The notes under the pieces are model-generated. The model had not been told where the DNA came from and searched no databases. It saw nothing but the letters and a program-made list of their open reading frames with translations. 52,923 bases of DNA. Origin: a virus (lineage: Duplodnaviria > Heunggongvirae > Uroviricota > Caudoviricetes). The DNA lies in the IMG/VR virus record IMGVR_UViG_2877251553_000008; one strand, given 5' to 3'. A program made the translations under genes and the position numbers. Of this stretch, positions 1 through 48,852 are shown one piece after another (the first letter of the stretch is position 1; each line of letters begins with the position of its first letter).

Positions 1-221
1 ACCCGCAAACCACACTTCCCTTTAAAACGCGTAACATACATTGCCTGCGTTTAACTTTCTTTGAACTCTTGCAGAAAAATGAGAATTCGTGAGTACAATC
101 ACTCAAAATCGCCTGGCAAAAATAAAATCACCCTATAAATGCACAAAAAACGGGCAAAACTACCTGGTTCGCAAAACTGCGTCTAAAGTTAAACCGGGAC
201 CTCGCGAGCAAGGGTGAGACG

Positions 222-289
222 ATGGCGCTTTACACAATTGGTGAAGTGGCGTTGCTTTGTGATATTAACCCTGTCACGTTACGCGCGTG
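222..289 (+). pseudogene. mlrA: mlrA (yehV) 5' fragment, truncated by prophage integration
   Basis: ATG at 222 encodes MALYTIGEVALLCDINPVTLRA, the MerR-type HTH N-terminus recalled for MlrA; the frame hits TGA at 288-290 where similarity ends, taken as the host/prophage junction. Confidence 0.6.
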
Positions 290-448
290 ACGCAACATTT
301 TTAAAAATCGACGAAGACCGTCCAGGAGCGCCGTTTTTCAAGGGTTGGATAGATGATTCGTTTACCATGTCGACGAACTTCGACGAATTTCGCCGATAAA
401 AAGTGTCCCATACATGCCCCATTGATGCCCCATAAACAATATCAGGAA

Positions 449-499
449 TTGACACTGGTTATCCATACAGATAAAAATAACACCTGTACATAACTACAG
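449..499 (+). promoter_or_regulatory. sigma70-like promoter with overlapping LexA (SOS) box for the dinI-like gene
   Basis: TTGACA at 449-454, 17-bp spacer, TAAAAA at 472-477; perfect SOS-box pattern CTGT-N8-ACAG (CTGTACATAACTACAG) at 484-499; AGGAGG at 503-508, ATG at 515. Confidence 0.75.
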
Positions 500-514
500 T
501 TACAGGAGGGTGTT

Positions 515-763
515 ATGCGTGTTGAGATCTGTATCGCTAAAGAAAAAATCACTAAAATGCCAAACGGTGCTGTGGATGCGTTAAAGGAAGAATTAACCCG
601 ACGCATCAGTAAACGTTATGACGATGTAGAGGTGATCGTAAAAGCCACCAGCAACGATGGCCTTTCTGTTACGCGCACCGCCGATAAAGATTCAGCTAAA
701 ACTTTTGTTCAGGAGACTCTGAAAGATACCTGGAAGTCTGCTGACGAGTGGTTTTTTCACTAA
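515..763 (+). CDS. dinI: DinI-family DNA damage-inducible protein
   Basis: 82-aa [14 protein letters not shown]...[11 protein letters not shown] matches the DinI family in length and conserved C-terminus (ETWxSADxWF); preceded by a LexA box. Confidence 0.85.
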
Positions 764-1079
764 TTAACACGTAAAATCGGTAACGGCTGGAAATCATTCA
801 ATACTCGCACTATCGAAAGTTCGCCAGCCAGCCGTGGCACGTTCTTGCATACGACGTGCTACGGTTTCATTCATCTCCGACCGGAAACTTCTTATACAAA
901 GTCGATACGCCAACATCATAGATGATCACCACCTTCTGGCGAGAAACTCCTGATGCAATTTGTCGTCCGGCCTGTGCCTATTGCTCCGGCGTGAGAGTAA
1001 TACAGTAAACTGTAGAAAAAGCCCATTAAACCTAATATAATAATAAGTTACAGAATTATCTTTACTGAATAATAGATAT

Positions 1080-1625
1080 ATGAATATTAGTGAACTTAAA
1101 AAGTGTATACACTATGAAGTAATAGGTTGTAAACGCCCTTTCTCCTGGCGAAAAGCAATTGTTCGCGCAATAAAACACAGAAGATCACGTTATTTATTTT
1201 GGTGGCGCATAGCAAAATATCTTTTTGATAAAGGCGGATACCGGCGAAAGATTGCAGGAAAAATAGAACGCTTCATTCTTGATAAATACAATGTAACCGT
1301 TCCCTTAACTGTAAATATTGGTAAAGGGTTCGACATATCTTATCTCAATGGCGTTGTTATCGGTCACAAAGTTACAATAGGTGAAAATTGTTCAATTAAG
1401 CCTGGGGTAACTATTGGACTTCGCGGTGAATTTAATGATATGGATATTGTCATAGGAAATAATGTAACCATTGGCTGTAACGCCACCATCCTTGGTGGCA
1501 AAGTGCATATAGGGAATAATGTAAAAATAGGAGCTCATGCATTGGTACTGCATGACATTCCTGATGACTCCACATTCATTACCAAATTTCACTCTGAAAT
1601 TATTTATAATTCATCTCACACATAA
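1080..1625 (+). CDS. hexapeptide-repeat (left-handed beta-helix) acetyltransferase, CysE/WcaB-like
   Basis: 181-aa ORF with tandem hexapeptide repeats (VIGHKVTIGENCSI, VIGNNVTIGCNATI, GNNVKIGAHALV); markedly AT-rich compared with flanking phage DNA. Confidence 0.7.
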   Translation: MNISELKKCIHYEVIGCKRPFSWRKAIVRAIKHRRSRYLFWWRIAKYLFDKGGYRRKIAGKIERFILDKYNVTVPLTVNIGKGFDISYLNGVVIGHKVTIGENCSIKPGVTIGLRGEFNDMDIVIGNNVTIGCNATILGGKVHIGNNVKIGAHALVLHDIPDDSTFITKFHSEIIYNSSHT

Positions 1626-1635
1626 TTCCGTTTAA

Positions 1636-1893
1636 TCACAGCTCAGGCCATACGATATCCGGGGCTGTATTTATATCAATCCGACTCACTAATACCCGGT
1701 ATTTATTCCATGCCTCCAGCAACGATCTTTCTTCCTCCGTTGCGATTTCCAGATCTACAGCATCCTGCAGTGGCGCAATATACTCACTGAATTCCTGGAT
1801 ATAGAACTGTGTGGTGACGGTCTTCCAGCCATTCGGCTCCTGCTGTATCGAAGCATACCAGGCTATTTCAATATCGCTATGCTGCGGCAGCAT
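1636..1893 (-). pseudogene. tfa: tail fibre assembly protein Tfa, C-terminal fragment
   Basis: 85-aa ORF ...[45 protein letters not shown] matches the lambda Tfa C-terminus; an in-frame stop lies immediately upstream of the first Met. Confidence 0.7.
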
Positions 1894-2117
1894 TTAACCC
1901 CTTGTAATTCATCGCCATAATTGATTTAATTCACAAATAAAACCATAACATGGTGAAATCAATGAAAAAAAACACAGATGATGGGGCTAAAATTTACACA
2001 CCACTTACCCTAAAGCTTTATGACTGGTGGGTTTTGGGAGTATCAAATCGGCTTGCATGGGGGGTGATGCTGCCAACTTACTGATTTAGTGTATGATGGT
2101 GTTTTTGAGGTGCTCCA

Positions 2118-2393
2118 GTGGCTTCTGTTTCTATCAGCTGTCCCTCCTGTTCAGCTACTGACGGGGTGGTGCGTAACGGCAAAAGCACTGCCGGACATCA
2201 GCGCTATCTCTGCTCTCACTGCCGTAAAACATGGCAACTGCAGTTCACTTACACCGCTTCTCAACCCGGTACGCACCAGAAAATTATTGATATGGCCATG
2301 AATGGCGTTGGATGCCGGGCAACTGCACGCATTATGGGCGTTAGCCTCAACACGATTTTACGTCACTTAAAAAACTCAGGCCGCAGTCGGTAA
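2118..2393 (+). CDS. insA: IS1 InsA
   Basis: 91-aa [46 protein letters not shown]... Confidence 0.95.
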
Positions 2394-2815
2394 CCTCGCG
2401 CATACAGCCGGGCAGTGACGTCATCGTCTGCGCGGAAATGGACGAACAGTGGGGATACGTCGGGGCTAAATCGCGCCAGCGCTGGCTGTTTTACGCGTAT
2501 GACAGGCTCCGGAAGACGGTTGTTGCGCACGTATTCGGTGAACGCACTATGGCGACGCTGGGGCGTCTTATGAGCTTGCTGTCACCCTTTGAAGTGGTGA
2601 TATGGATGACGGATGGCTGGCCACTGTATGAATCCCGCCTGAAGGGAAAGCTGCACGTAATCAGCAAGCGATATACGCAGCGAATTGAGCGGCATAACCT
2701 GAATCTGAGGCAGCACCTGGCACGGCTGGGACGGAAGTCGCTGTCGTTCTCAAAATCGGTGGAGCTGCATGACAAAGTCATCGGGCATTATCTGAACATA
2801 AAACACTATCAATAA
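2312..2815 (+). CDS. insB: IS1 InsB (made as InsAB' by -1 frameshift at A6C)
   Basis: C-terminal part ...[22 protein letters not shown]...HYLNIKHYQ; start coordinate approximate. Confidence 0.85.
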
Positions 2816-3261
2816 GTTGGAGTCATTACCTGCATGGGGATGTCCTACAAAGGAACACCTTCTTCCACACTTTCTGGAACATGTAGGTAACAACCATCTG
2901 GATATTGGTGTTGGAACTGGGTTTTACCTTACTCACGTACCTGAGAGTAGTCTGATATCTTTAATGGATTTGAACGAAGCTAGTCTGAACGCGGCATCTA
3001 CAAGGGCTGGGGAATCAAAAATTAAACATAAAATTAGCCATGATGTTTTTGAACCTTATCCCGCGGCGTTACATGGTCAATTTGATTCCATTTCCATGTT
3101 TTACCTTCTTCACTGCCTGCCTGGAAATATATCTACAAAAAGCTGTGTAATACGCAATGCGGCGCAGGCGTAAGCGTACAGCCTGAACCGTCTGGTCAGA
3201 ATCTGACGAATTAGACAAAGTGGTGTCCACCAAATAAGTAGTGGGAACCAAAGTGTCAGAT

Positions 3262-3641
3262 ATGCAGAAAAATGTGAATCCCGGCAGGCGAAAAGGCTGC
3301 CCTAATTATCCTCCCGAATTTAAACAGCAGCTCGTTGCTGCCTCCTGTGAACCCGGGATATCCATCTCAAAACTTGCTCTGAAAATGGCATTAACGCCAA
3401 TCTGTTGTTCAAATGGCGACAACAATGGCGCGAGGGAAAGCTGCTATTACCTTCTTCAGAGAGCCCCCAGCTACTTCCTGTGACTCTCGATGCAGCTGCC
3501 GAACAGCCAGAATCGCTCGCAGAGGATCCGGAAACCCTCAGTATCAGCTGTGAGGTAACGTTCCGGCACGGGACGCTCCGCTTCAATGGCAATGTCAGCG
3601 AAAAGCTCCTGACTCTGCTGATACAGGAACTGAAGCGATGA
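3262..3641 (+). pseudogene. IS66-family orfA (TnpA), frameshifted
   Basis: Two overlapping frames (3241..3483 and 3405..3641) together give ...PEFKQQLVAASCEPGISISKLAL / FKWRQQWREGKLLLP...; one base missing near 3380-3385. Confidence 0.7.
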
Positions 3642-3985
3642 TCCCGTTACCTTCCGGGACCAAAATTTGGCTGGTTGCCGGTATCACCGATATGAGAAAT
3701 GGCTTCAACGGCCTGGCGGCAAAGGTGCAGACGACGCTGAAAGACGCTCCGATGTCAGGTCACGTTTTTATCTTCCGTGGGCGTAATGGCAGTCAGGTAA
3801 AGCTCCTCTGGTCTACCGGCGATGGACTGTGTCTGCTGACCAAACGGCTGGAGCGCGGCCGCTTCGCCTGGCCGTCAGCCCGGGATGGCAAAGTGTTCCT
3901 CACACCGGCACAGCTGGCGATGCTCCTTGAAGGTATCGGCTGGCGGCAGCCTAAAAGACTGCTTACGTCCCTGACTATGTTGTAA
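3638..3985 (+). CDS. IS66-family orfB (TnpB)
   Basis: 115-aa ORF MIPLPSGTKIWLVAGITDMRNGFNGLAAKV..., start overlaps the orfA stop (ATGA). Confidence 0.8.
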   Translation: MIPLPSGTKIWLVAGITDMRNGFNGLAAKVQTTLKDAPMSGHVFIFRGRNGSQVKLLWSTGDGLCLLTKRLERGRFAWPSARDGKVFLTPAQLAMLLEGIGWRQPKRLLTSLTML

Positions 3986-4033
3986 GCCTCTTTATCCTGG
4001 TCGACGCTGAATGAGCCTGGTAATATACCCGGT

Positions 4034-5572
4034 ATGAGCAGCTCACTTCCTGACGATATCAATGCACTGAAACGTCTCCTTGCCGAACAGGAGGCGCTGA
4101 ACCGTGCCCTGCTGGAAAAGCTGAACGAGCGTGAACGCGAAATAGACCATCTGCAGGCACAGCTGGATAAGCTGCGCCGGACGAACTTCGGCAGCCGCTC
4201 CGAAAAAGTCTCCCGTCGTATCGCACAGATGGAAGCTGACCTGAAGGCACTTCAGAAAGAAAGTGATACCCTTACCGGTCGGGTTGACGACCCGGCCGTG
4301 CAGCGCCCGCTGCGTCAAACCCGCACCCGCAAACCGTTCCCCGAATCACTCCCCCGCGATGAAAAACGGCTGCTGCCGGCAGCGTCATGCTGCCCGGAAT
4401 GTGGAGGCTCACTGAGCTATCCGGGTGAGGATGCCGCCGAACAGCTGGAGTTGATGCGCAGCGTCTTCCGGGTTATCCGGACTGTACGTGAAAAGCATGC
4501 CTGTACTCAGTGCGATGCCATCGTGCAGGCCCCCGCGCCTTCACGGCCCATCGAGCGGGGTATCGCAGGACCGGGGCTGCTGGCCCGCGTGCTGATCTCA
4601 AAGTATGCAGAGCACACCCCGCTGTACCGCCAGTCTGAAATGTACGGCCGCCAGGGCGTGGAGCTGAGTCGTTCACTGCTGTCGGGCTGGGTGGATGCAT
4701 GCTGCCGGCTACTGTCACCGCTGGAAGAAGCGCTTCAGGACTATGTGCTGACTGACGGTAAGCTCCATGCTGATGACACGCCTGTCCCGGTGCTGTTGCC
4801 AGGCAATAAGAAAACGAAGACCGGGCGGTTATGGACCTACGTTCGTGACGACCGTAACGCCGGGTCAACGCTGGCGCCGGCGGTGTGGTTCGCTTACAGC
4901 CCGGACAGAAAAGGCATCCATCCGCAGACCCATCTTGCGGGGTTCAGTGGTGTACTGCAGGCGGATGCATACGCCGGGTTCAACGAGCTGTACCGGGATG
5001 GCCGGATAACGGAAGCCGCCTGTTGGGCTCACGCCCGCCGTAAAATCCACGATGTGCACGTTCGCACCCCGTCAGCCCTGACGGAGGAAGCGCTGAAACG
5101 GATCGGCGAACTGTACGCCATCGAGGCAGAGATAAGGGGAATGACGGCGGAGCAGCGCCTTGCCGAACGTCAGTTGAAAACGAAACCGCTGCTGAAATCC
5201 CTGGAAAGCTGGCTGCGTGAAAAGATGAAAACCCTGTCGCGACACTCAGAACTGGCGAAAGCGTTCGCATACGCCCTGAACCAGTGGCCGGCGCTGACGT
5301 ACTATGCAGATGATGGCTGGGCTGAGGCGGACAATAACATCGCTGAAAATGCGTTGCGGATGGTCAGTCTGGGCCGCAAAAACTACCTGTTCTTCGGTTC
5401 GGATCATGGAGGAGAGCGGGGAGCGCTGCTGTACAGCCTGATCGGGACGTGCAAACTGAACGGAGTGGAGCCAGAAAGCTACCTCCGCTATGTACTTGAC
5501 GTCATAGCCGACTGGCCGATAAACCGGGTCGGCGAACTGCTCCCCTGGCGCGTAGCACTGCCGACTGAATAA
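4034..5572 (+). CDS. IS66-family transposase (orfC)
   Basis: 512-aa ORF with N-terminal coiled-coil and zinc-finger Cys pairs (CCPECG...CTQC), typical of IS66 TnpC. Confidence 0.85.
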
Positions 5573-5609
5573 CACATCCCCGTCAATACGGTTCTTGCTG
5601 CACGCTTAC

Positions 5610-5857
5610 AACTGTTACGACAACGCTCCGATGGAAAGCTTCTGGGGAACGCTGAAAAATGAGAGCCTGAGCCACTATCGTTTTAATAACCGGGATGAAG
5701 CCATCTCAGTAATACGGGAATACATTGAGATTTTCTACAATCGTCAGCGTCGTCACTCTCGTCTGGGGAATATCTCCCCGGCAGCCTTCAGGGAAAAATA
5801 TCATCAGATGGCTGCTTAAAAAAAGAACAAATGGTAGTGTCCGCTATTGCCAGTACA
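5610..5857 (+). mobile_element. IS3-family element, 3'-terminal fragment (orfB C-terminus plus right inverted repeat)
   Basis: In-frame ...NCYDNAPMESFWGTLKNE...YNRQRRHSRLGNISPAAF (end of a DDE transposase) ending 5819; terminal repeat GGTAGTGTCCGCTATTGCCAGTACA at 5833-5857; 5' part replaced by the IS66-family element. Confidence 0.7.
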
Positions 5858-6538
5858 CCTCATGTGGTTTGGGTTCGTAGTCGCTCTGAACTTGCGTTTC
5901 TGCTTACAGCGTAGCCTTAGCTCCTTACGAAGACGTGCCAGTCGGTCACGACCAACGATGATGCCATTCTCTGCCAGCTCCGTCTGGAGCCGCCGGGTTC
6001 CATATGTTTCGCGAGTGCGGATATGTGCCACCTTAATCTCCAGTTTTAGCCGCTCATCACTTTGTTTTCTGTCTGAGGGTTCATGCTGTACCCAGTTGTA
6101 ATAACCGCTCCTGGATACACCAAATACCTGACACATCGCTTCAATGGGAAATTGTTGTCGCCATTGTTCGATTAACGCGTATTTTTCAGCGACTCCTGTG
6201 CAAAATACGCTGTTGCTTTTTTTAATATATCTCGCTCAAGGCGAGCTTCATTTAACGCCTTACGCAGTTGCAGAATTTCAGATTCCAGTTCAGCCACCGT
6301 GCGGGAACCAGGAGTACCGAGCCCTTTTCTGGCGGCGGTAACCCATTGTCCTAAAGTGCCTTCAGGAAGGGATAATCGGGAAGCGCCTTCACTGATCGAA
6401 AGTTGATTTTCAAGAACCGTTCTGACAGCTTCGGCTTTGAACTCTTTAGAGTAACGTTGGTTTTTTCTGCTCATTATTAGCTCCTTCTGATGCCATTCTA
6501 TTTCAGGAAGGAGTGTCCGTTAAACTCAGGCTACCTCA
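5858..6538 (-). mobile_element. IS3-family element (IS600-like), 5' fragment with orfA and the first ~95 codons of orfB
   Basis: orfA at 6172..6474 (MSRKNQRYSKEFKAEAVRTVLENQLSISEGASRLSLPEG...); orfB N-terminus MCQVFGVSRSGYYNW... loses similarity at 5858 where the opposite-strand fragment abuts; left end ...CTACCTCA at 6538. Confidence 0.7.
6172..6474 (-). CDS. IS3-family orfA (IS600-like)
   Basis: 100-aa ORF with HTH and leucine-zipper-like C-terminus (ELESEILQLRKALNEARLERDILKKATAYFA). Confidence 0.8.
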   Translation of the reverse strand: MSRKNQRYSKEFKAEAVRTVLENQLSISEGASRLSLPEGTLGQWVTAARKGLGTPGSRTVAELESEILQLRKALNEARLERDILKKATAYFAQESLKNTR

Positions 6539-6587
6539 GTTCAACGGTTTTTGGATTACCTGCGACAATGTTTTTTAAATGCTGCAT
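6539..6587 (-). pseudogene. tfa: tfa 5' fragment (first 16 codons), cut by the IS3-family fragment
   Basis: ATG 3 nt downstream of the stf stop encodes MQHLKNIVAGNPKTVE, a Tfa-type N-terminus, then runs into the IS end at 6538. Confidence 0.55.
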
Positions 6588-6589
6588 GA

Positions 6590-9394
6590 TTATACCTGCG
6601 ATACGTTATACCATGTTCCGTTAATTAACTTTTGTATTGGTCTGAATACTGCCGGATCATCACCATCGACTTCACCGATAATACCAAGCCCCGTGATTAC
6701 ATGGCCTGATTTTTCATACATCACGCCTTTCTTCATGGTCTGAACAACTCGTGTGCCAAGTCTGACATCTCTCACATAGCGGGAATCAAAGTTACCGTAA
6801 TCCGAGGGATTAACACGTCCCGTAATATTTATGGTTTTATTACTTTGAATGCTTCCGGAGACAAAGCGCATAACATGGACGTTATTAGCATAAACATCCA
6901 GATTACCATCGCCATTTTGTTTAAAGCCCGTATCATTATCACCCAATACAATCGAATTACCGCCAAGAGCACTGGCTGTTCCGATACCCAGTGCACCATT
7001 CAGTTGACCACCAGATAACGGCAGTGCACCAACATCTCCTGCTGAAGGTTTTCTGGTGGTGGTGTAAAATTCGGACCAGTCGGCTTCAAAACCATAACCA
7101 TCACGGGCTGAACGATAAAAAATACCGCCATTTTTATAATTAATCCGAAACTGAGCTGCAGGACAACTTCCTTCTCCCATATAAAAATGAATAATTAACG
7201 TTGATGCACCTCTAATAGTTGCGTTATAGGCTCCGCTACTCCAGTTCCATCCAACTGCTTTATCATTCGCAACGGTGCTTCCTGTTTTCCCTAAGGCAAA
7301 CGCACCAACATGACTTGCTTTTAATGTGATATCGGAGGAACCATCAAAAGCCACATTGCTTATTTTCCTGGCAGTTTTTAATTTTGCAGCTGTAGAAGCA
7401 TTGCCGGATAGTTCACCAGAAAGGCCACCGCTGAATGTTTGTCGATTAGTCCAGGTATTCGCTGTACTGAGTAACGGTATTTTCTCCCCGCTTGTGCCGA
7501 GTTCTCGTAAACCGAGGTATTCGATAACGGCAGCAACAGTCGATTTCGCAAGAATATCCCGCCCGACTTTTGTCAGGGTTGCCAGGCTGGCGACATCATT
7601 CCCCGTAAAATACGGAAACTTGTCTGCCGCAGTAGTAAGCCCGGCCAGCGCCGTCAGGGTGGCATCTTTCGGTTGCTTACCCGCAAGCGCGTTAGTCATG
7701 GTGGTCGCAAAATTCGGGTCGTTTCCCAGCGCCGCCGCTAACTCGTTCAGCGTATTCAGTGCGTCAGGTGACGAATCTACAAGGGCGGCAATCGCAGCCA
7801 TAACGAAAGCCGTGCTTGCGATTTGGATATTATTCGTTCCCTGTCGCGCAGTTGGTGTTGTTGGCGTTCCGGTCAGTGCAGGACTATTTAAGGGCGCTTT
7901 CTTGTTCGTTTCACCCATTACCGCCTTAACCGCTTTTGGCGTTGCCGCCAGTGACTCGGAAGTGCTGTTGGTCGCACTGCTGAGCTGTACTATCCCCTTT
8001 TTCGTCGTGCTCGCATCCTCCAGCGCCACGGCGGATGCAATATCCTCTGCCCGTTTTGCTGCTGTCTCGGCGCGCGTTGCCGCGGATTCCGCCGTACTTT
8101 TGCTCTGAGCTGCCGCCGTCGCACTACCAGCTGCCTCTGATGCTTTCATTGTTGCTGTCGTGGCACTACCTTTCGCTGCTGACGCTTGTCTGGTCGCCTC
8201 ATCTTTTGAAGCAGACGCAGATGATGCCGATGACGCCGCTGAACTGGCTGACGATGCGGCAGCCGCCTTAGAGGAAGCAGCATTGTCTGCTGAAGTCTTT
8301 GCATTTGTTTCAGAGGTTTTTGCTGCAGAAGCAGACCTCGCTGCTGCAGTGGCTTGCTCAGTGGCTTTGCCAGCCTTCGTTGTGGCTGTTGAAGCGGATG
8401 ATGCGGCGCTTTCTGCCGATTTTCCGGCGGCGCTAGCACTGGCTGAGGCCTGCCCGGCACTTGTTGACGCGGCACTGGCAGACGACGCAGCCGCTGTTTT
8501 TGAGCCTGCCGCAGCTGAGGCGCTCTGTCCCGCTGCTGTTTCAGAAGACTTAGCGTTCGTCTCGGACGTTTTTGCCGCCTTCGCGGAATTTCCTGCCACC
8601 GTTGCCGAGGAAGCTGCACTACTGGCACTTGATGATGCATTCGTTTCTGAAGATTTCGCTGCCTCTTTTGAAGCCGCCGCACCCCGTGCCGAGGTGGCAG
8701 CTTCTGACGCCTTCGTGGTCGCTGTGGATGCAGAAGTGGCTGCCGATTTTTGTGATGCTGCGGCATTCGTTTCTGACGTTTTCGCGGCACTGGCGCTGGT
8801 AGCTGCCGCGCTTTTTGATGACTCTGCAGCAGCAGCACTTTTTGCTGCTTCACGGGCCTTTGTCGATGCCGTTCCTGCGCTGGAAGACGCTGACTGAGCC
8901 GACGACGCGGCCTGTCCGGCTGACGTGCTTGCGGCACGTGCTGAGGCTGCAGCATCGGTTGCATGAGTTGCCGCCTCGCTGGCTGATGCACTGGCATCGC
9001 TGGCTGATTTTTTCGCGGCTGCCGTATTCTGTGCAACCGCGGAGGCGTTACGTGACACCTCTTCCACCATCTGCTCAAAGCGGCGCAGTGCCTCCGGTCG
9101 GACATCATCCTCCGTCATGGCACCGAGAAAATCATTTAGCGTACCTGGTCTGGAACCTTCATAGACGGTAATGGTCCCGGCATGTGAAGGCGGAAAACCT
9201 TCAACCAGCAGGGTGACGCTGTACTGACCATGCTCAACATCCATGCTGTAACGTCCGGCTTCATCCGGATTTTCAGAGGCCACCGTGTTCACCACCACCG
9301 TGCTGCTGGTTCGTCTGGCCTTCAGCACAATGGTGCAGTTCTGTACTGGTTTTCCTGTGCCATCTTTAAGCACGCCAGAAATTTTTACTGTCAT
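6590..9394 (-). CDS. stf: side tail fibre protein Stf
   Basis: N-terminus MTVKISGVLKDGTGKPVQNCTI... matches lambda Stf; long Ala/Ser-rich repeat region; ATG at 9394 preferred over the TTG used by the ORF track. Confidence 0.9.
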   Translation of the reverse strand: MTVKISGVLKDGTGKPVQNCTIVLKARRTSSTVVVNTVASENPDEAGRYSMDVEHGQYSVTLLVEGFPPSHAGTITVYEGSRPGTLNDFLGAMTEDDVRPEALRRFEQMVEEVSRNASAVAQNTAAAKKSASDASASASEAATHATDAAASARAASTSAGQAASSAQSASSSAGTASTKAREAAKSAAAAESSKSAAATSASAAKTSETNAAASQKSAATSASTATTKASEAATSARGAAASKEAAKSSETNASSSASSAASSATVAGNSAKAAKTSETNAKSSETAAGQSASAAAGSKTAAASSASAASTSAGQASASASAAGKSAESAASSASTATTKAGKATEQATAAARSASAAKTSETNAKTSADNAASSKAAAASSASSAASSASSASASKDEATRQASAAKGSATTATMKASEAAGSATAAAQSKSTAESAATRAETAAKRAEDIASAVALEDASTTKKGIVQLSSATNSTSESLAATPKAVKAVMGETNKKAPLNSPALTGTPTTPTARQGTNNIQIASTAFVMAAIAALVDSSPDALNTLNELAAALGNDPNFATTMTNALAGKQPKDATLTALAGLTTAADKFPYFTGNDVASLATLTKVGRDILAKSTVAAVIEYLGLRELGTSGEKIPLLSTANTWTNRQTFSGGLSGELSGNASTAAKLKTARKISNVAFDGSSDITLKASHVGAFALGKTGSTVANDKAVGWNWSSGAYNATIRGASTLIIHFYMGEGSCPAAQFRINYKNGGIFYRSARDGYGFEADWSEFYTTTRKPSAGDVGALPLSGGQLNGALGIGTASALGGNSIVLGDNDTGFKQNGDGNLDVYANNVHVMRFVSGSIQSNKTINITGRVNPSDYGNFDSRYVRDVRLGTRVVQTMKKGVMYEKSGHVITGLGIIGEVDGDDPAVFRPIQKLINGTWYNVSQV

Positions 9395-36264: not shown

Positions 36265-37314
36265 TCAAACGATTAAATCCTGAACTTCCCTGACTGTCTG
36301 CTCAAAACGTCCGGTCTCCAGTTCAACGCCAATCGCACGACGCCCGAGCGCCAGTGCCGCTTTTACCGTTGAACCTGAGCCCATAAAAAAATCTGCAACC
36401 TGGTCTCCCGGACGACTGCTCGCGTTGATTATCTGCTGCAACATTTCTGCCGTTTTTTCGCACGGATGTTTCCCTGGATAGTACTGCACCGGTTTATACG
36501 TCCACACATCGGTGTACGGCACCTGCACCGTCACACCGAAATACCTCCGCAAATTTTTATATTCACTCTGCAGCTCCACATACTGCCGGCTCAGCTCACT
36601 GTATGTGCTGACCAGTTGGTAATGGGACTTTTCCAGTTCTCCCCGCTGATGTTTCTCTTCTGCCACCCGGGCAAACAGCGACTGTAATTTCAGATAATCG
36701 CTTTCGTTCGGTAGCTGCCACTGACTGGCACTGAACCAGTGCGACACCATGTTTTTCTTTCCTGTGGCATCTGCAATCTGTTTTGCCGTTATCCCCAGGG
36801 CAGCTCGCGCATCACGAAAGTAAGCAATCAGCGGGGCCATCACATGCTGTTTCAGTACCCTGCCCTTCGCCTCATAGCCATCATCTTTCGGGCGGTACGG
36901 CCCCTGATAATGTTCCGCGAACAGAATGCGCTCTGTGGCGGGGAAATACGCCCGCAGGCTTTCCTTGTTGCACCCGTTCCAGCGTCCGGACGGCTTTGCC
37001 CAGATAATATGGTTCAGCACACTGAAGCGTTCACGCATCATGATTTCGATATCAGATGCCAGGCGATGACCACAGAACAGGTAAAGACTTCCGGCAGGTT
37101 TCAGCACCCGCCAGAACTGCGCCAGACACTGGTCCAGCCACTTCAGGTAATCATCGTCGCCCTTCCACTGGTTATCCCAGCCCTCAGGCTTCACTTTAAA
37201 GTACGGCGGGTCCGTGACTATCAGGTCAACAGAATTTTCGGGTAACGACCGGATAAATTCCAGGCAGTCGGCGTTGATTAACTCACAACTGGATATTTTT
37301 ACAGTATTAGCCAT
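36265..37314 (-). CDS. DNA N6-adenine methyltransferase (DPPY motif)
   Basis: 349-aa ORF with DLIVTDPPYF catalytic motif and C-terminal SAM-binding FFMGSGSTVKAA. Confidence 0.85.
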   Translation of the reverse strand: MANTVKISSCELINADCLEFIRSLPENSVDLIVTDPPYFKVKPEGWDNQWKGDDDYLKWLDQCLAQFWRVLKPAGSLYLFCGHRLASDIEIMMRERFSVLNHIIWAKPSGRWNGCNKESLRAYFPATERILFAEHYQGPYRPKDDGYEAKGRVLKQHVMAPLIAYFRDARAALGITAKQIADATGKKNMVSHWFSASQWQLPNESDYLKLQSLFARVAEEKHQRGELEKSHYQLVSTYSELSRQYVELQSEYKNLRRYFGVTVQVPYTDVWTYKPVQYYPGKHPCEKTAEMLQQIINASSRPGDQVADFFMGSGSTVKAALALGRRAIGVELETGRFEQTVREVQDLIV

Positions 37315-37662: not shown

Positions 37663-38195
37663 GTCTTTTTCCCTTTTCCGGTTAACGTGACACACCAATA
37701 ACTCTTGTCGAAAAAGCCAGCAAGCTGAAAGACAGGTATTCACCGCCACCAGCGCGTTTACTGTACTGACGCGATTTCAGTCATAAAAAACCCGCCAGGC
37801 GGCAGGTTTAAGCTGTATGACGGAGTGACCAATCTTAACAGATTAAGATGGTTTTTGTTATAACACAAATCATTTCCTCGGTATCTTTATATCCCTTATG
37901 TTTCAATCGCCATAGATACCATCAATGAAAGTCGCTTAAAAAACTCTGTAGCAGCTTTGTCTAACGTTGAATAAGTTCTTAGCTCTCCACGCCCGGGACC
38001 AGTCACAACCCACGGACGTCTTTTAGGTGTTCTGGCTCCCTCCGAAATCACAACACCTGATAGACTGACATCAATTGTTATCTCCGTTCTTGTTTCATCC
38101 TCATTAGACTGGCCCCCTGAATCTCCAGACAACCAGTATCACTTAAATAAGTGATAGTCTTAATACTAGTTTTTAGACTAGTCATTGGAGTACAG

Positions 38196-38561
38196 ATGAT
38201 TGATGTCTTAGGGCCGGAGAAACGCAGACGGCGTACCACACAGGAAAAGATCGCAATTGTTCAGCAGAGCTTTGAACCGGGGATGACGGTCTCCCTCGTT
38301 GCCCGGCAACATGGTGTAGCAGCCAGCCAGTTATTTCTCTGGCGTAAGCAATACCAGGAAGGAAGTCTTACTGCTGTGGCCGCCGGAGAACAGGTTGTTC
38401 CTGCCTCTGAACTTGCTGCCGCCATGAAGCAGATTAAAGAACTCCAGCGCCTGCTCGGCAAGAAAACGATGGAAAATGAACTCCTCAAAGAAGCCGTTGA
38501 ATATGGACGGGCAAAAAAGTGGATAGCGCACGCGCCCTTATTGCCCGGGGATGGGGAGTAA
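38196..38561 (+). CDS. insC: IS2 InsC (orfA)
   Basis: [56 protein letters not shown]... Confidence 0.95.
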
Positions 38562-39424
38562 GCTTAGTCAGCCGTTGTCTCCGGGTGTCGCGTGCGCAGT
38601 TGCACGTCATTCTCAGACGAACCGATGACTGGATGGATGGCCGCCGCAGTCGTCACACTGATGATACGGATGTGCTTCTCCGTATACACCATGTTATCGG
38701 AGAGCTGCCCACGTATGGTTATCGTCGGGTATGGGCGCTGCTTCGCAGACAGGCAGAACTTGATGGTATGCCTGCGATCAATGCCAAACGTGTTTACCGG
38801 ATCATGCGCCAGAATGCGCTGTTGCTTGAGCGAAAACCTGCTGTACCACCATCGAAACGGGCACATACAGGCAGAGTGGCCGTGAAAGAAAGCAATCAGC
38901 GATGGTGCTCTGACGGGTTCGAGTTCTGCTGTGATAACGGAGAGAGACTGCGTGTCACGTTCGCGCTGGACTGCTGTGATCGTGAGGCACTGCACTGGGC
39001 GGTGACTACCGGCGGCTTCAACAGTGAAACAGTACAGGACGTCATGCTGGGAGCGGTGGAACGCCGCTTCGGCAACGATCTTCCGTCGTCTCCAGTGGAG
39101 TGGCTGACGGATAATGGTTCATGCTACCGGGCTAATGAAACACGCCAGTTCGCCCGGATGTTGGGACTTGAACCGAAGAACACGGCGGTGCGGAGTCCGG
39201 AGAGTAACGGAATAGCAGAGAGCTTCGTGAAAACGATAAAGCGTGACTACATCAGTATCATGCCCAAACCAGACGGGTTAACGGCAGCAAAGAACCTTGC
39301 AGAGGCGTTCGAGCATTATAACGAATGGCATCCGCATAGTGCGCTGGGTTATCGCTCGCCACGGGAATATCTGCGGCAGCGGGCTTGTAATGGGTTAAGT
39401 GATAACAGATGTCTGGAAATATAG
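38519..39424 (+). CDS. insD: IS2 InsD (orfB transposase)
   Basis: 301-aa [33 protein letters not shown]...[23 protein letters not shown]... Confidence 0.95.
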
Positions 39425-44481: not shown

Positions 44482-44672
44482 GGACGCACCTCCGCCGTAG
44501 TTACGTATTTAACCGGGCTACCTTTCATTGAGATGGTTTCACACATCTCTGCCGCTTTCAGTTCCGCTGTTTTTCTGGATTTATAGCGACGGTGCCAGAC
44601 AGATACATCCGTGCGAACTGATACATCGTTTCTGTATTCCGTAGTGGAGATGATGATTTCGTAACTAATCAT
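44478..44672 (-). CDS. hypothetical protein (64 aa)
   Basis: Small ORF with ATGA coupling to the upstream Rha-like gene; no homologue recalled. Confidence 0.3.
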   Translation of the reverse strand: MISYEIIISTTEYRNDVSVRTDVSVWHRRYKSRKTAELKAAEMCETISMKGSPVKYVTTAEVRP

Positions 44673-45520
44673 GGGCGAACCTCCTTGTCAGAACCATTCA
44701 GCCTGGAATCAACAAGTGCAGCGCCAAAAACAGCATCACCAACACGGTCGTACAGTTTGCTAGCCAGCGGAGATTCAATGGCCTTAAGCATTGGATAAAG
44801 CTGGCTTGTCCAGATTTGATGGATTTCACGCAAATGCAGGTATACGCCTCTGGCGTTTCGTGCGACAGCTGACATATCAACCGCGTCAGCACCAGATAAA
44901 TTCTTCTCCATCTGGTTAAAGGCGTTGATGTATGCCTCTTTGAACCGGGCTGCACGTTTGCCAGTAAAGCCCATAGCAAGGAACGCGAAGCCATCACGGG
45001 TGATTTGATAGCAAGGTAGTTTGCGGCCTGTGCAATCGGTGTAATCACTCACCGAAAAATTGCGGGCAGTGAATGATGCGGAGCATTCAAGCGTGCGGAT
45101 CTTTTTCAGTACATCGTCATGACGCTTGGAGAAGAAGTTGGCAACAGCCAGGGATGAAGTAACAGCCTGACCATCAACGATGGCAATTTCAGGTTGAGTG
45201 AGGGTTGGGATCGTAGCCATGATGGCAGCCTCCGTTGACTGTGGAAAACTTCCACCACCGGAGCTGCGAAACTCACTGGTGGCAGACTGAACAGGGTTCG
45301 CAGTACCGGCGTCAACGGAGACCGGCGAGCCTTTCGGCTCCCCTGCCCAGCCCACCATAATTCTGGCGTGCGTGAGCGCGGACGATAAAAAAGACGCTGG
45401 CGCGTCATATATCGCCGTTGACAATTCCGGGCTGCGACCCCCGGCACCCACTTTATAAGGTGCAGAGACAGTGTAACGTCCCGAAATTGCAGAATCAATA
45501 TTTGGTCTTGAAATGATCAT
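44669..45520 (-). CDS. Rha-family phage regulatory protein (functional start probably ATG at 45220)
   Basis: Rha domain IVDGQAVTSSLAVANFFSKRHDDVLKKIRTLEC... begins ~100 codons into the ORF; internal ATG at 45220 has a GGAGG RBS. Confidence 0.6.
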   Translation of the reverse strand: MIISRPNIDSAISGRYTVSAPYKVGAGGRSPELSTAIYDAPASFLSSALTHARIMVGWAGEPKGSPVSVDAGTANPVQSATSEFRSSGGGSFPQSTEAAIMATIPTLTQPEIAIVDGQAVTSSLAVANFFSKRHDDVLKKIRTLECSASFTARNFSVSDYTDCTGRKLPCYQITRDGFAFLAMGFTGKRAARFKEAYINAFNQMEKNLSGADAVDMSAVARNARGVYLHLREIHQIWTSQLYPMLKAIESPLASKLYDRVGDAVFGAALVDSRLNGSDKEVRP

Positions 45521-45628: not shown

Positions 45629-46336
45629 TCACCGCTGCCAACCAATAACCTGAAATAACCCCATTTTCGGGTGATACCAGCGAGTCCCTCGCGGTTCTGC
45701 TTCCTCCATAACCCGATAAAAAGCAGCCATAAACGGTTCCACAGCAACAATTGCGCGACGTGACAACAATCCGTCCGGCGTCATGAACTCATGGGTGTCT
45801 GTAGGAATCTGATAGGCGTTCACCAGATTGCGGCATTTATCATCTGACAAACCGGTTTTTGCTTTCAGTTGGCGATATCCGGCATAGCCCTCACGAATAG
45901 TGCCCTTTTTAATTTGCTCGACTGTTTCAGCAACGTGGCTGACTTTTTCTTCCACCTGAGTGATCCGTTTCTGCTGACGAACTGCTTCAAGAGCCATCGC
46001 GGCAACCATTTCGATTTCGCTCATTGGCTTACGGATCTGTTCTTCCAGTTCGCGCCAGCGATCTACCAGGCGAGCAGTGAATTCAGGACAGAGCTGTGCG
46101 ACGACAATGATGCTGTCGCGCTTACCTTGTTCTCCTTCAAACAGGTAATGCTCATATTGAACTTTAAAACCTAAGTTATTGATTCTTTCGGAAACCTCAA
46201 TTTGAGGAGACCGGACAACGCCACCTTTGGCTAATGTTTCAATAGTGCGTTTCACATTGTCATGACGTTTACCCACCAGCTCTGCGATCTCAACGCTGGT
46301 CATGGATGCTTTGCCGTTAAAAATTGCGGTGTTCAT
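45629..46336 (-). CDS. Rha-family / antirepressor-like protein
   Basis: 235-aa ORF with N-terminal SVEIAELVGKRHDNVKRTIETL Rha signature; start coupled (ATGA) to the cro-like gene. Confidence 0.65.
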   Translation of the reverse strand: MNTAIFNGKASMTSVEIAELVGKRHDNVKRTIETLAKGGVVRSPQIEVSERINNLGFKVQYEHYLFEGEQGKRDSIIVVAQLCPEFTARLVDRWRELEEQIRKPMSEIEMVAAMALEAVRQQKRITQVEEKVSHVAETVEQIKKGTIREGYAGYRQLKAKTGLSDDKCRNLVNAYQIPTDTHEFMTPDGLLSRRAIVAVEPFMAAFYRVMEEAEPRGTRWYHPKMGLFQVIGWQR

Positions 46337-46560
46337 TGTTGGTCTCCTGTGGGCTTGTCATCTTCTGTATTCGCTAGACTTGGGTGTGTATATGGAATGC
46401 TCGGATCCAGATGACAAAGAATGGCAACATCCTCCGGAACACCTCGCGTTTTCCACTTTCCAACACCTTGACTGCCACGAGGCCTTCCTTTCTTTGGGAA
46501 CCTGCGACCAATAGCGGCATTGGTTTTAAATTGAATTTTTAATATTTCATAAAGGGTCAT
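46333..46560 (-). CDS. cro: Cro-like small regulator (first gene of the rightward early operon)
   Basis: 75-aa ORF transcribed divergently from cI across a 111-bp operator region; assigned by position, sequence similarity to known Cro weak. Confidence 0.4.
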   Translation of the reverse strand: MTLYEILKIQFKTNAAIGRRFPKKGRPRGSQGVGKWKTRGVPEDVAILCHLDPSIPYTHPSLANTEDDKPTGDQQ

Positions 46561-46671
46561 TCTTTAGTCTCACACCAGATACTTTGTTATCCAACGATGT
46601 TAACCGCAAGAATCCAAAGTATCAAGATATTCTGTTACTTTAGTATCAACAGCCATGAGAGGAGAAGAAAA
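46561..46671. promoter_or_regulatory. cI/cro divergent promoter-operator region (OR-like)
   Basis: Repeated half-site core GTATCA/TGATAC (GATACT 46579-46584; AGTATCAA 46618-46625 and 46642-46649); RBS GAGAGGAG before the cI ATG. Confidence 0.5.

Positions 46672-47683: not shown

Positions 47684-48852
<1,169 letters not shown>

What the first reader, a model, noticed from the sequence alone, without database searches (positions are those of the whole stretch)
449..1625. SOS-controlled dinI-like gene plus AT-rich acetyltransferase at the prophage attR end
The dinI-like gene has a textbook promoter with a perfect LexA box over the start site, so it responds to DNA damage independently of phage late transcription. 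The next gene is a hexapeptide acetyltransferase with much lower GC than the rest, suggesting separate acquisition. Acetyltransferases at this position can modify surface polysaccharide or small molecules.
Basis: partly seen in the sequence, partly recalled or inferred. Interest (0 to 1): 0.4.

Follow-up and report, generated by a model that had tools for sequence, protein, structure and literature searches.

The report
Prophage dinI and acetyltransferase-like cargo genes
The left end of this prophage carries an ordinary, already-annotated DNA-damage-inducible dinI-like gene and, next to it, a separately acquired AT-rich phage gene that databases call "serine acetyltransferase", although it lacks that enzyme's catalytic residues and its function is unknown.

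Summary
A lambdoid prophage sits in mlrA/yehV. At its tail-fibre end is a dinI-like gene (515-763). It has a perfect -35 hexamer and a mediocre -10. A CTGT-N8-ACAG LexA box lies at 482-501. The identical promoter and SOS box are already annotated in phage VT1-Sakai. Gifsy prophage dinI homologues are experimentally LexA-controlled. This part is therefore known biology.

The next intact gene (1080-1625) encodes a hexapeptide-repeat (left-handed beta-helix) protein. It has the lowest GC in the window (0.36; GC3 0.28). It belongs to a mobile cassette: a Cin-like invertase remnant, this gene, and the 3' end of a tail-fibre-assembly gene. The cassette also occurs in P1-like plasmids and in myovirus prophages.

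It is not a serine acetyltransferase. It falls below every curated cut-off. CysE residues His158, Asp143, Arg192 and His193 are replaced by Tyr, Thr, Met and Asp. It is nevertheless under strong purifying selection (dN/dS about 0.1). It nearly always lies convergent with a tail-fibre assembly gene. It belongs to PHROG 2154, a family of unknown function. Its likely role is envelope-glycan or receptor modification, but this is untested. Overall interest is low to moderate.

The parts
223..291 (+). 5' fragment of the host gene mlrA/yehV (MALYTIGEVALLCDINPVTLRA*), interrupted by the prophage. The att core lies at about 271-290.
   Evidence: Sequence read. The VT1-Sakai record annotates yehV' and its attachment site at the homologous position. 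btsS/yehU lies immediately outside in E. coli B19374 and FDAARGOS_944.
449..478 (+). Sigma-70-type promoter of the dinI-like gene: TTGACA, a 17/18-nt spacer, then TAAAAA/AAAAAT.
   Evidence: Consensus scan gives 10 of 12 matches. Annotated as a 'putative promoter' in AP000400 at the homologous bases. Invariant in 4 of 5 aligned copies and retained in H10407.
453..472 (+). Upstream, weaker LexA-like box CACTGGTTATCCATACAGAT, overlapping the -35 hexamer and spacer.
   Evidence: Own heterology index 9.4-10.1. The homologous box is stronger in H10407 (CACTGTTTATTCATACAGTT, HI 4.8) and is present in phiNP (HI 7.5).
482..501 (+). Main LexA box ACCTGTACATAACTACAGTT (core CTGT-N8-ACAG at 484-499). It lies between the -10 and the ribosome-binding site, 13 nt before the ATG.
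   Evidence: Annotated as 'LexA protein / putative SOS box' in AP000400. The motif is retained despite sequence change in H10407 and phiNP.
515..763 (+). dinI-like gene (82 aa). AGGAGG ribosome-binding site at 504-509.
   Evidence: PF06183 E=1.1e-18. phrog_189 'RecA filament binding protein DinI' E=3e-30. NCBIfam DinI equivalog scores 68 bits, below its cut-off of 111.
830..866 (+). 14-bp hairpin followed by UUUCAUUCAU. This is a terminator-like end of the dinI module and coincides with the homology breakpoint.
   Evidence: RNA fold of 764-900: -37.2 kcal/mol, z=-3.2. Homology with VT1-Sakai and Stx phages ends at 867-874.
867..995 (-). C-terminal remnant (43 codons, internal stop) of a Cin/Pin-type serine DNA invertase. 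Non-functional.
   Evidence: Translation gives TLTPEQ*AQAGRQIASGVSRQKVVIIYDVGVSTLYKKFPVGDE*. RefSeq annotates the same piece as an HTH-domain pseudogene in four other genomes. The resemblance to Cin is from my own knowledge.
1013..1041 (+). Promoter-like site (TAGAAA, 17-nt spacer, TATAAT) upstream of the acetyltransferase-like gene.
   Evidence: Consensus scan gives 10 of 12 matches. Its function is not shown. No good Shine-Dalgarno sequence precedes the ATG.
1080..1625 (+). AT-rich gene for a 181-aa left-handed beta-helix (hexapeptide) protein of PHROG 2154. RefSeq annotates it as 'serine acetyltransferase'. The catalytic His/Asp of CysE are replaced by Tyr88/Thr73.
1636..1893 (-). 3' remnant (85 codons) of a tail-fibre assembly gene, convergent with the acetyltransferase-like gene. 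It is a hybrid: 1636-1770 belongs to the cassette, and 1643-2000 continues as in prophages that lack the cassette.
   Evidence: PF02413 E=6e-22. Breakpoints from blastn. Full-length tfa genes at this position in L001 and L002.

Best explanation
Two independent cargo modules sit side by side at the tail-fibre/attR end of a decayed lambdoid prophage inserted in mlrA.

Module A (about 440-874) is a self-contained SOS gene. LexA bound to two boxes that bracket the -10 (453-472 and 482-501) blocks a strong -35 promoter. After DNA damage LexA is cleaved and an 82-aa DinI-like protein is made. By homology this protein binds RecA filaments and modulates the SOS signal. A hairpin at 830-866 probably ends the transcript.

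Module B (867-1770) is a mobile tail-fibre-end cassette. It holds a dead Cin-like invertase stub, an AT-rich gene with its own promoter-like site, and the 3' end of tfa. The gene encodes a cytoplasmic left-handed beta-helix acyltransferase-fold protein of phage family PHROG 2154. It is not a serine acetyltransferase. My committed guess is that it is a lysogenic-conversion factor acting on a sugar or envelope-glycan precursor (LPS core, O-unit, ECA or colanic acid), and so alters the receptor seen by phages carrying the linked tail-fibre/tfa cassette. It would use a non-canonical active site (Tyr88 in place of the general-base His).

Shown: the sequence anatomy, homology, composition, selection and synteny. 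Inferred: LexA binding, RecA binding, the transcript ends, and all of the biochemical function of the beta-helix protein.
For: dinI module:
- Pfam and PHROG matches.
- LexA core and heterology index better than any shuffle.
- The same promoter and SOS box are annotated in VT1-Sakai.
- The two-box geometry is kept in diverged copies in H10407 and phiNP.
- Gifsy dinI homologues were experimentally LexA-controlled and 4.6-23-fold induced, with boxes 19 bp from the ATG.
- The hairpin lies at the module boundary.

Cassette:
- Lowest GC in the window.
- Breakpoints at 867 and 1770.
- The same invertase-stub/gene/tfa unit occurs at four different chromosomal sites, and the gene and tfa also occur on P1-like plasmids (no invertase stub found there) and in a myovirus.

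Protein:
- Hexapep domain and a full-length match to phrog_2154.
- dN/dS of 0.07-0.12 against 84-88%-identical DNA copies.
- A convergent tfa lies within 12 bp in 46 of 47 close loci, and within 92 bp in 20 of 43 loci of the 35-52%-identity clade. The same holds in a 53%-identity member.
- Other relatives sit next to a GtrC-type glycosyltransferase (L008) or a weak GT9 heptosyltransferase-like gene (L065). These hint at glycan chemistry.
Against: - No experiment supports LexA binding for this exact site, and the -10 is weak.
- For the beta-helix protein the catalytic His/Asp dyad of the closest characterised enzymes is absent in the whole clade at 53% identity or more. Acetyl transfer to a hydroxyl is therefore doubtful.
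- The structure model is poor in the beta-helix (pLDDT 50-66) and gave no significant fold match.
- No ribosome-binding site is evident.
- The tfa linkage could be simple hitch-hiking at a moron insertion site rather than functional coupling.
- In this window the linked tfa is truncated and separated from the tail-fibre gene by IS1 and IS66 elements. Any coupling to this prophage's own fibre is lost.
Confidence: 0.6

Rival explanations
1. The AT-rich gene is a true serine O-acetyltransferase (CysE isoform), an auxiliary metabolic gene that boosts cysteine synthesis, as its RefSeq name implies.
For: The best sequence matches among solved structures are SATs, at E about 1e-13. RefSeq and several phage records name it serine acetyltransferase. 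The best NCBIfam hits are EpsC and CysE.
Against: Scores are far below the curated cut-offs: 77 vs 211 for TIGR01172 and 53 vs 397 for PRK11132. CysE Asp143, His158, Arg192 and His193 align with Thr, Tyr, Met and Asp. His158 and Asp143 are the proposed catalytic pair (PMC8786284). The long N-terminal SATase domain and the C-terminal CysK-binding tail are both absent, and the protein is only 181 aa.
Confidence: 0.03
2. The beta-helix protein is a non-catalytic pseudoenzyme. It would be a trimeric scaffold or ligand-binder kept for a binding function, such as sequestering a nucleotide-sugar, CoA thioester or host protein, rather than for acyl transfer.
For: The His/Asp dyad was lost together (His to Tyr, and Asp/Glu to Thr/Lys/Val) in every member at 53% identity or more, while all members at 52% or less keep it. 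Purifying selection nevertheless remains strong.
Against: Several LbH N-acyltransferases work without a catalytic base (own knowledge: QdtC and WlbB class). Loss of His therefore does not prove inactivity. The rest of the beta-helix signature (GVTIGLR, IGCNxxILGG, IGAH) is conserved across both clades.
Confidence: 0.2
3. The acetyltransferase-like gene is co-transcribed with dinI from the LexA-controlled promoter. It would then be an SOS-induced function used during prophage induction rather than in the lysogen.
For: Both genes are on the same strand, and the simple scan found no canonical terminator between them. In Citrobacter phiNP the order dinI-hicA-hicB-sat is all on one strand and tightly spaced. 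VT1-Sakai annotators assumed that the dinI promoter also serves the next gene.
Against: A stable 14-bp hairpin with a U-rich tail lies at 830-866, exactly at the module boundary. A separate promoter-like site (TAGAAA-17-TATAAT) lies at 1013-1041. Copies of the gene in P1-like, P2-like and other contexts have no dinI and no LexA box nearby. The juxtaposition here arises from two independent modules.
Confidence: 0.15
4. The gene acetylates a small molecule (an antibiotic of the Vat/CatB/MAT type, or a metabolite) and gives the lysogen a resistance or detoxification trait.
For: There are weak matches to the Vat, CatB, maltose and galactoside acetyltransferase models over the C-terminal coils.
Against: All of these matches are 22-34 bits against cut-offs of 300-475 and reflect only the generic hexapeptide repeat. 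The N-terminal helical domain is of the CysE/EpsC/WcaB type. Persistent linkage to tail-fibre genes is not explained by drug resistance.
Confidence: 0.07
5. The CTGT-N8-ACAG motif is a chance match and the dinI-like gene is not LexA-regulated.
For: One other such core occurs in the window, and 24 of 100 shuffles gave at least 2 cores. The heterology matrix was built from sites I recalled from memory.
Against: The full 20-mer scores better than the best site in all 20 shuffles. It sits precisely between the -10 and the RBS. A second box flanks the -10. Both boxes are retained, with different sequences, in H10407 and phiNP. Homologous Gifsy sites are experimentally validated.
Confidence: 0.03

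Closest known systems
H0001 (dinI homologue) of phage VT1-Sakai / Sp15, with its annotated 'putative promoter' and 'putative SOS box' (AP000400)
   Same: Integrated in yehV/mlrA at the same att. The 440-874 region is about 96% identical. The promoter and LexA-box bases are identical.
   Different: In VT1-Sakai the next gene is a YkgJ-like ORF on the same strand. Here that gene is replaced by the invertase-stub/beta-helix/tfa cassette.
dinI homologues of Salmonella Gifsy-1/-2/-3 (first gene of the LexA-repressed dinI-antirepressor-irsA operon)
   Same: A prophage-borne DinI-like gene with a LexA box a few bases before the RBS. Damage induction was demonstrated (PMC3121763; PMC8072944).
   Different: The Gifsy operon lies downstream of the replication genes and carries the small antirepressor that triggers induction. 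Here the gene is at the tail-fibre end. No antirepressor-sized ORF follows it: only about 100 nt precede the hairpin.
Chromosomal DinI of E. coli K-12
   Same: Same fold family. 43% identity over the full length, with a conserved C-terminal TW-SAD-WF helix.
   Different: Below the NCBIfam equivalog cut-off, 68 vs 111. Fewer acidic residues in the C-terminal helix. Phage-borne.
Short CysE/EpsC/WcaB-type LbH O-acetyltransferases
   Same: An N-terminal helical domain followed by about five hexapeptide coils. Best HMM hits are EpsC (E=4.5e-24), CysE (E=1.7e-21) and WcaB (E=1.4e-16).
   Different: Fails every curated cut-off. The catalytic His and its Asp partner, and the serine-binding Arg-His, are substituted. 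Encoded on phages next to tail-fibre genes, not in biosynthetic clusters.
NeuO, the polysialic-acid O-acetyltransferase of prophage CUS-3 (PMC3046976)
   Same: A prophage-borne cytoplasmic LbH protein acting as a lysogenic-conversion factor on a surface polysaccharide. This is the functional precedent for the favoured hypothesis.
   Different: No specific sequence relationship was found. No 5' heptanucleotide repeat tract for phase variation is present. NeuO retains a catalytic His (own knowledge). The substrate here is unknown.
'sat' of Citrobacter phage phiNP, 'sacF' of P1-like phage-plasmid JL22, and PHROG 2154
   Same: Same protein family: 42%, 37% and full-length profile match respectively. 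Same position convergent with tfa. The authors state the function is unknown, or list it only as a predicted 'fitness' gene.
   Different: phiNP keeps the His/Asp dyad (JL22's residues were not examined). The window protein belongs to the Tyr/Thr sub-clade.
Receptor-masking genes placed beside receptor-binding genes (cor of phi80/N15/HK022; llp of T5). Own knowledge, an analogy only.
   Same: A small cargo gene genetically linked to the host-range determinant, so that the two travel together.
   Different: Cor and Llp are envelope proteins that block FhuA. The protein here is a cytoplasmic beta-helix protein, and any receptor effect is hypothetical.

Membership tests
DinI family (Pfam PF06183) | Profile match above the gathering score over the whole domain | tested here: met
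   67.7 bits against a cut-off of 24.2; residues 16-80 cover profile positions 1-63 of 63.
DinI equivalog (NCBIfam NF007893, chromosomal DinI) | Score at or above the curated cut-off of 111 bits | tested here: not met
   68 bits. It is a DinI-like paralogue, not the housekeeping DinI.
DinI family | Binding to RecA nucleoprotein filaments | not testable with these tools
   Only the conserved C-terminal helix motif was seen.
E. coli LexA regulon (SOS box) | CTGT-N8-ACAG palindrome with a heterology index in the functional range | tested here: met
   Perfect core at 484-499. HI 7.4 with a matrix built from 24 remembered sites, better than all 20 shuffles. The matrix is my own, not the published Lewis matrix.
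E. coli LexA regulon (SOS box) | The box overlaps the promoter or transcription start | tested here: met
   The boxes at 453-472 and 482-501 flank the -10 at 472-478. The +1 is inferred, not mapped.
E. coli LexA regulon (SOS box) | LexA binding and damage-inducible transcription | not testable with these tools
   Shown only for the Gifsy homologues in the literature.
Bacterial transferase hexapeptide (LbH) superfamily (PF00132) | Hexapeptide repeats above the gathering score | tested here: met
   50.6 bits against 27, in two stretches.
Serine O-acetyltransferase CysE (TIGR01172 / PRK11132) | Score at or above the curated cut-off | tested here: not met
   76.9 vs 210.65, and 52.9 vs 397.
Serine O-acetyltransferase CysE | Catalytic His158 with Asp143 (E. 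coli numbering; PMC8786284) | tested here: not met
   Tyr88 and Thr73 align at these positions in HMMER, MAFFT and BLAST alignments.
Serine O-acetyltransferase CysE | Serine-binding Arg192-His193 (own knowledge of the E. coli structure) | tested here: not met
   'DRHPK' aligns with 'NDMDIV', placing Met and Asp at these positions.
EpsC / WcaB / NeuD / WbbJ / Vat / CatB equivalogs | Score at or above the curated cut-off of each model | tested here: not met
   85 vs 150, 59-60 vs 195-196, 49 vs 161, 40 vs 243, 29 vs 300 and 24 vs 350.
PHROG 2154 (phage protein family, function unknown) | Full-length profile match | tested here: met
   E=2.8e-77; residues 1-180 cover profile positions 4-184 of 185.
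NeuO-type phase-variable prophage O-acetyltransferase | Heptanucleotide repeat tract in the 5' coding region | tested here: not met
   The repeat search of 1-3200 found no tandem tract in or before the gene.
Known anti-phage defence systems (PADLOC-DB v2) | Match to any defence-protein model | tested here: not met
   No family at E<=0.01 for either protein.
Cin/Gin/Pin/Hin invertible tail-fibre switch | Intact serine invertase plus inverted crossover sites flanking the segment | tested here: not met
   Only 43 C-terminal codons remain, with an internal stop. No crossover-core-like AAACCNNGGTTT lies within 1-7500, and no suitable inverted repeats were found.

The most novel reading that the evidence does not exclude
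The Tyr/Thr sub-clade of PHROG 2154, to which this gene belongs, may be a mechanistically new kind of phage beta-helix protein. It has lost the His/Asp dyad of CysE-type acetyltransferases yet is strongly conserved. It travels with tail-fibre/tfa host-range cassettes across lambdoid, P1-like and P2-like phages. On this reading it masks or alters the very receptor that the linked fibre recognises, for example LPS core or another glycan assembled in the cytoplasm. That would make it a receptor-matched superinfection-exclusion module working by an unconventional (base-independent or non-catalytic) mechanism.
Probability: 0.15. Interest if true: 0.55.

Novelty: already known. Interest (0 to 1): 0.22.

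Why it matters
As it stands this matters little. A LexA-controlled dinI-like gene at the end of a lambdoid prophage is textbook-level and has been annotated in VT1-Sakai since 2000. The identical beta-helix protein is already in RefSeq.

Three modest points of value remain:
1. The database name 'serine acetyltransferase' for this phage family is almost certainly wrong. It should not be read as a cysteine-metabolism gene.
2. The family is a recurrent cargo gene physically coupled to tail-fibre assembly genes in at least three phage types and in P1-like plasmids. Authors have explicitly called its role unknown (PMC9603915). It is a cheap, well-defined target for a receptor-modification or superinfection-exclusion experiment.
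3. The correlated loss of the catalytic dyad under purifying selection is a small enzymological puzzle.

Tried and rejected
- Structure. The AlphaFold2 model from a 33-sequence alignment had mean pLDDT 69.8. The helical N-domain was good, but the beta-helix scored only 50-66. Foldseek against the PDB gave nothing with E<1, although SATs were the top non-significant hits. I drew no structural conclusion.
- Defence systems. PADLOC found no match.
- Invertible-switch idea. I asked whether the gene might sit inside a Cin/Pin-type invertible segment and be phase-variable. I rejected this. The invertase is a 43-codon stub with a stop. No crossover-core motif or suitable inverted repeat lies near it. 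All 47 close copies have the same orientation relative to tfa.
- P1-like origin of the stub. I looked for the invertase stub upstream of the gene in a P1-like plasmid. It is absent there. Instead there is about 1 kb of GC-rich unannotated sequence.
- Gifsy-type antirepressor. No plausible ORF follows dinI. The only candidate, 834-953, is antisense to the invertase stub and crosses the module boundary.
- LexA boxes near the beta-helix gene in dinI-less contexts. None were found, so SOS control is not a family property.
- Rfam scan of 1-2200. It gave only sub-threshold hits: IS009 at 101.5 vs 117 bits inside the tfa remnant, and CssrB at 29 vs 76.
- Literature. Searches found no functional study of this protein family.
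Full report
**Observation.** The features reported are all present.
- An 82-codon ORF at 515-763(+) is a DinI-family gene (Pfam PF06183, E=1.1e-18; phrog_189, E=3e-30).
- Upstream lies a perfect TTGACA (449-454). After 17 or 18 nt comes a mediocre -10, TAAAAA or AAAAAT, matching 4 of 6 positions.
- Next come the LexA core CTGT-N8-ACAG at 484-499, an AGGAGG ribosome-binding site at 504-509, and the ATG.
- The 181-codon ORF at 1080-1625(+) carries hexapeptide repeats (PF00132, 50.6 bits against 27).
- That ORF is the most AT-rich 546-bp stretch of the whole 53-kb window: GC 0.361 and GC3 0.280, against 0.52 overall and GC3 of 0.44-0.64 in other phage genes.

**Context.**
- Bases 223-291 encode the first 23 residues of the host regulator MlrA/YehV. 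They end at the attachment site annotated for phage VT1-Sakai.
- In E. coli B19374 and FDAARGOS_944 the gene outside is btsS/yehU.
- The window's other end carries the integrase (51637-52923). The late genes run on the minus strand towards the dinI end.
- By the lambda convention this is therefore the tail-fibre/attR end of a lambdoid prophage. The dinI-like gene is transcribed against the late operon.
- The end is decayed. The tail-fibre assembly gene is reduced to 85 codons (1636-1893, PF02413). A SAM-methyltransferase gene is split by IS1, and IS66-family genes follow.

**Two modules, not one.** blastn against fetched loci gives sharp breakpoints.
- 440-867/874 matches VT1-Sakai and about 150 Stx-type phage records at 94-97%.
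- 867-995(-) is a 43-codon C-terminal stub of a Cin/Pin-type DNA invertase with an internal stop. RefSeq annotates it as an HTH pseudogene in four other genomes.
- 1006-1770 (the beta-helix gene plus the tfa 3' end) matches P1-like plasmids and myovirus vB_EcoM-613R2 at 84-85%.
- From 1643 onward the window follows prophages that lack the cassette altogether (L003).
- The stub/gene/tfa unit recurs at four different chromosomal sites: near mlrA, prfC, pphA and argW-intS. It sits in siphovirus-type and baseplate-bearing prophages.
- Only 91 of 5,426 complete E. coli genomes carry the gene. In 27 of them it is on 90-115-kb plasmids.
- 'Separate acquisition' is therefore right. The dinI module and the conserved tfa 3' end can serve as homologous anchors for swapping the cassette in or out. 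That last point is an inference.

**The dinI module.**
- I built a heterology index from 24 E. coli LexA boxes recalled from memory. It is therefore an approximation of the published index.
- On this index the 20-mer at 482-501 (ACCTGTACATAACTACAGTT) scores 7.4. This is within the range of the genuine sites and better than the best site in each of 20 shuffled windows (8.4-12.9).
- A second box at 453-472 (HI 9.4-10.1) overlaps the -35 and spacer. The two boxes flank the -10.
- The geometry is conserved while the sequence drifts. The ETEC H10407 copy has CACTGTTTATTCATACAGTT and TACTGTATACAAACACAGTG (HI 4.8 and 3.9). Citrobacter phage phiNP has two boxes (HI 7.5 and 2.7) in the same TTGACActg...cag-TAAAT-...CTGT...CAG layout.
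- The VT1-Sakai GenBank record already labels exactly these bases 'putative promoter' and 'LexA protein, putative SOS box'.
- For the Gifsy prophages the homologous arrangement was shown experimentally to be LexA-dependent (PMC3121763). It was induced 4.6-23-fold by nalidixic acid, with boxes 19 bp from the ATG and HI 3.9-5.3 (PMC8072944).
- A 14-bp hairpin with a U-rich tail at 830-866 (z=-3.2) coincides with the end of the conserved module. The unit looks monocistronic here.
- No antirepressor-sized ORF follows, unlike the Gifsy dinI-antirepressor-irsA operon.
- The protein is a paralogue. It keeps the C-terminal TW-SAD-WF helix.
- Its role for the phage is as open as it is for Gifsy, where deletions had no effect on induction.

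**The 'acetyltransferase'.**
- NCBIfam ranks EpsC, CysE and WcaB first, but all are far below their cut-offs: 85 vs 150, 77 vs 211, and 59-60 vs 195-196. NeuD, WbbJ, Vat and CatB match only through generic repeats.
- The best solved relatives are serine acetyltransferases at E about 1e-13.
- In the HMMER, MAFFT and BLAST alignments the catalytic His158 of E. coli CysE aligns with Tyr88. Its partner Asp143 aligns with Thr73, and the Arg192-His193 pair aligns with Met-Asp. The role of His158 and Asp143 is taken from PMC8786284.
- The pattern is phylogenetically clean. Every relative at 53% identity or more has Tyr, with Thr, Lys or Val at the Asp position. Every relative at 52% or less keeps His, with Asp or Glu (Ser in three distant sequences).
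- The gene is not decaying. dN/dS against the P1-like and 613R2 copies is 0.07-0.12, at dS 0.44-0.64.
- It matches PHROG 2154 end to end (E=2.8e-77), a family of unknown function, and nothing in PADLOC.
- The literature only lists it. It is a predicted 'fitness' cargo gene in phiNP (PMC6456863). [quoted passage not shown]

**Synteny.**
- Across 95 fetched loci, 46 of 47 Tyr-clade copies have a tail-fibre assembly gene convergent within 12 bp. Of 43 His-clade copies (35-52% identity), 20 have one within 92 bp.
- A 53%-identity Tyr-clade member sits the same way in a P2-like tail cluster.
- Several of the remaining copies abut other tail or baseplate genes. Some lie at prophage ends next to integrase or host genes.
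- Two relatives neighbour glycosyltransferase-like genes: a GtrC-type gene in Salmonella and a weak GT9 match.
- dinI is adjacent only in the lambdoid context and in phiNP, where a hicAB pair lies between the two genes.
- No LexA box accompanies the gene elsewhere.

**Mechanism.**
- For dinI, LexA occludes the promoter until RecA-stimulated self-cleavage. The product then acts on RecA filaments. This is inferred from homology, with high confidence for the regulation.
- For the beta-helix protein I commit to a lysogen-expressed, cytoplasmic acyltransferase-fold protein that alters an envelope-glycan precursor. This would change the receptor for phages carrying the linked fibre cassette. NeuO of CUS-3 is the precedent for an LbH conversion enzyme. 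The cor and llp genes (own knowledge) are the precedent for linking exclusion to host-range genes.
- I rate this specific function at about 0.35. The main rivals are a non-catalytic pseudoenzyme (0.2), SOS co-transcription with dinI (0.15, a question of regulation rather than function), small-molecule acetylation (0.07) and a true serine acetyltransferase (0.03).
- The overall confidence of 0.6 refers to the composite anatomical and regulatory picture, not to the biochemical function.

**Known versus new.**
- The dinI/LexA part is already known and already annotated.
- The beta-helix gene is an already catalogued family member, and identical proteins are in RefSeq.
- As far as my searches show, two points are not in the literature: the loss of the catalytic dyad in a conserved sub-clade, and the breadth of the tfa linkage. 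They are incremental.

**Verdict.** The acetyltransferase function is over-interpreted and the database name is misleading. Interest is 0.22.

**Dead ends.**
- The structure model was low in confidence and the fold search was uninformative.
- There is no evidence for an active invertible switch.
- No Rfam family reached threshold.

Noticed in passing
window 37287-37306 (gene 36265-37314, minus strand): The best LexA-box match in the whole window (AACTGGATATTTTTACAGTA, own HI 4.7-4.9) is not at dinI. It lies in codons 3-9 of a phage DNA N6-adenine methyltransferase gene (PF01555). About 150 nt upstream is a terminator-like GC stem and T-run. The region is 95-99% conserved in Stx2-converting phages. 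Whether LexA controls this methylase or an internal promoter is unknown.
   Followed up: partly
window 46597-47079(+), 46333-46560(-), 45629-46336(-), 44669-45520(-): The candidate immunity repressor is only 160 aa, with an HTH_3 domain and no Peptidase_S24 domain. It lies divergent from a small cro-like ORF, which is followed by an Ant-type anti-repressor (phrog_63) and an Ash-Rha protein. The prophage may therefore not be induced by repressor self-cleavage. What triggers induction was not worked out.
   Followed up: partly
window about 2090-2857, 3241-5572, 38151-39424, 47684-48523: Several insertion sequences riddle the prophage. IS1 splits a class I SAM-methyltransferase gene. IS66-family ORFs lie between the tfa remnant and the tail-fibre gene. 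IS3-family transposase genes lie in the early region. Relatives without the cassette carry an ipaH effector gene here (L003). This suggests a Shigella or enteroinvasive E. coli background and a defective prophage.
   Followed up: no
window 1667-1870 (minus strand): There is a sub-threshold Rfam match to IS009 (RF02111; 101.5 bits against a gathering score of 117; full-length model). It lies inside the tail-fibre-assembly remnant.
   Followed up: no
L010 about 5052-6000 (P1-like plasmid NZ_CP062860.1): About 1 kb of GC-rich, unannotated sequence lies between the holin gene and the acetyltransferase-like gene. In P1 this position would carry cin and the alternative fibre segment. It contains GTGCGCCC... 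and other highly structured-looking stretches. It could be a non-coding RNA element such as an intron or retron remnant. I did not examine it.
   Followed up: no
L012 643-1256 (Citrobacter phage phiNP): A hicA-hicB toxin-antitoxin pair with its own promoter-like site sits between the LexA-controlled dinI-like gene and the sat homologue. This shows that the dinI-to-tfa interval is a general cargo hotspot.
   Followed up: no
L065 3021-4124 and L008 2710-4248: Distant relatives of the beta-helix protein lie next to a weak GT9 (heptosyltransferase-like) ORF and a GtrC-type (PF19528) glycosyltransferase, respectively. These are the only contextual hints that the family acts on LPS or O-antigen.
   Followed up: partly
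L018 (IMGVR_UViG_2872174743_000006, 52,691 bp): An IMG/VR viral contig is almost identical to the window over its first 5,622 bases (4 mismatches). The same prophage lineage is therefore already in public viral collections.
   Followed up: no
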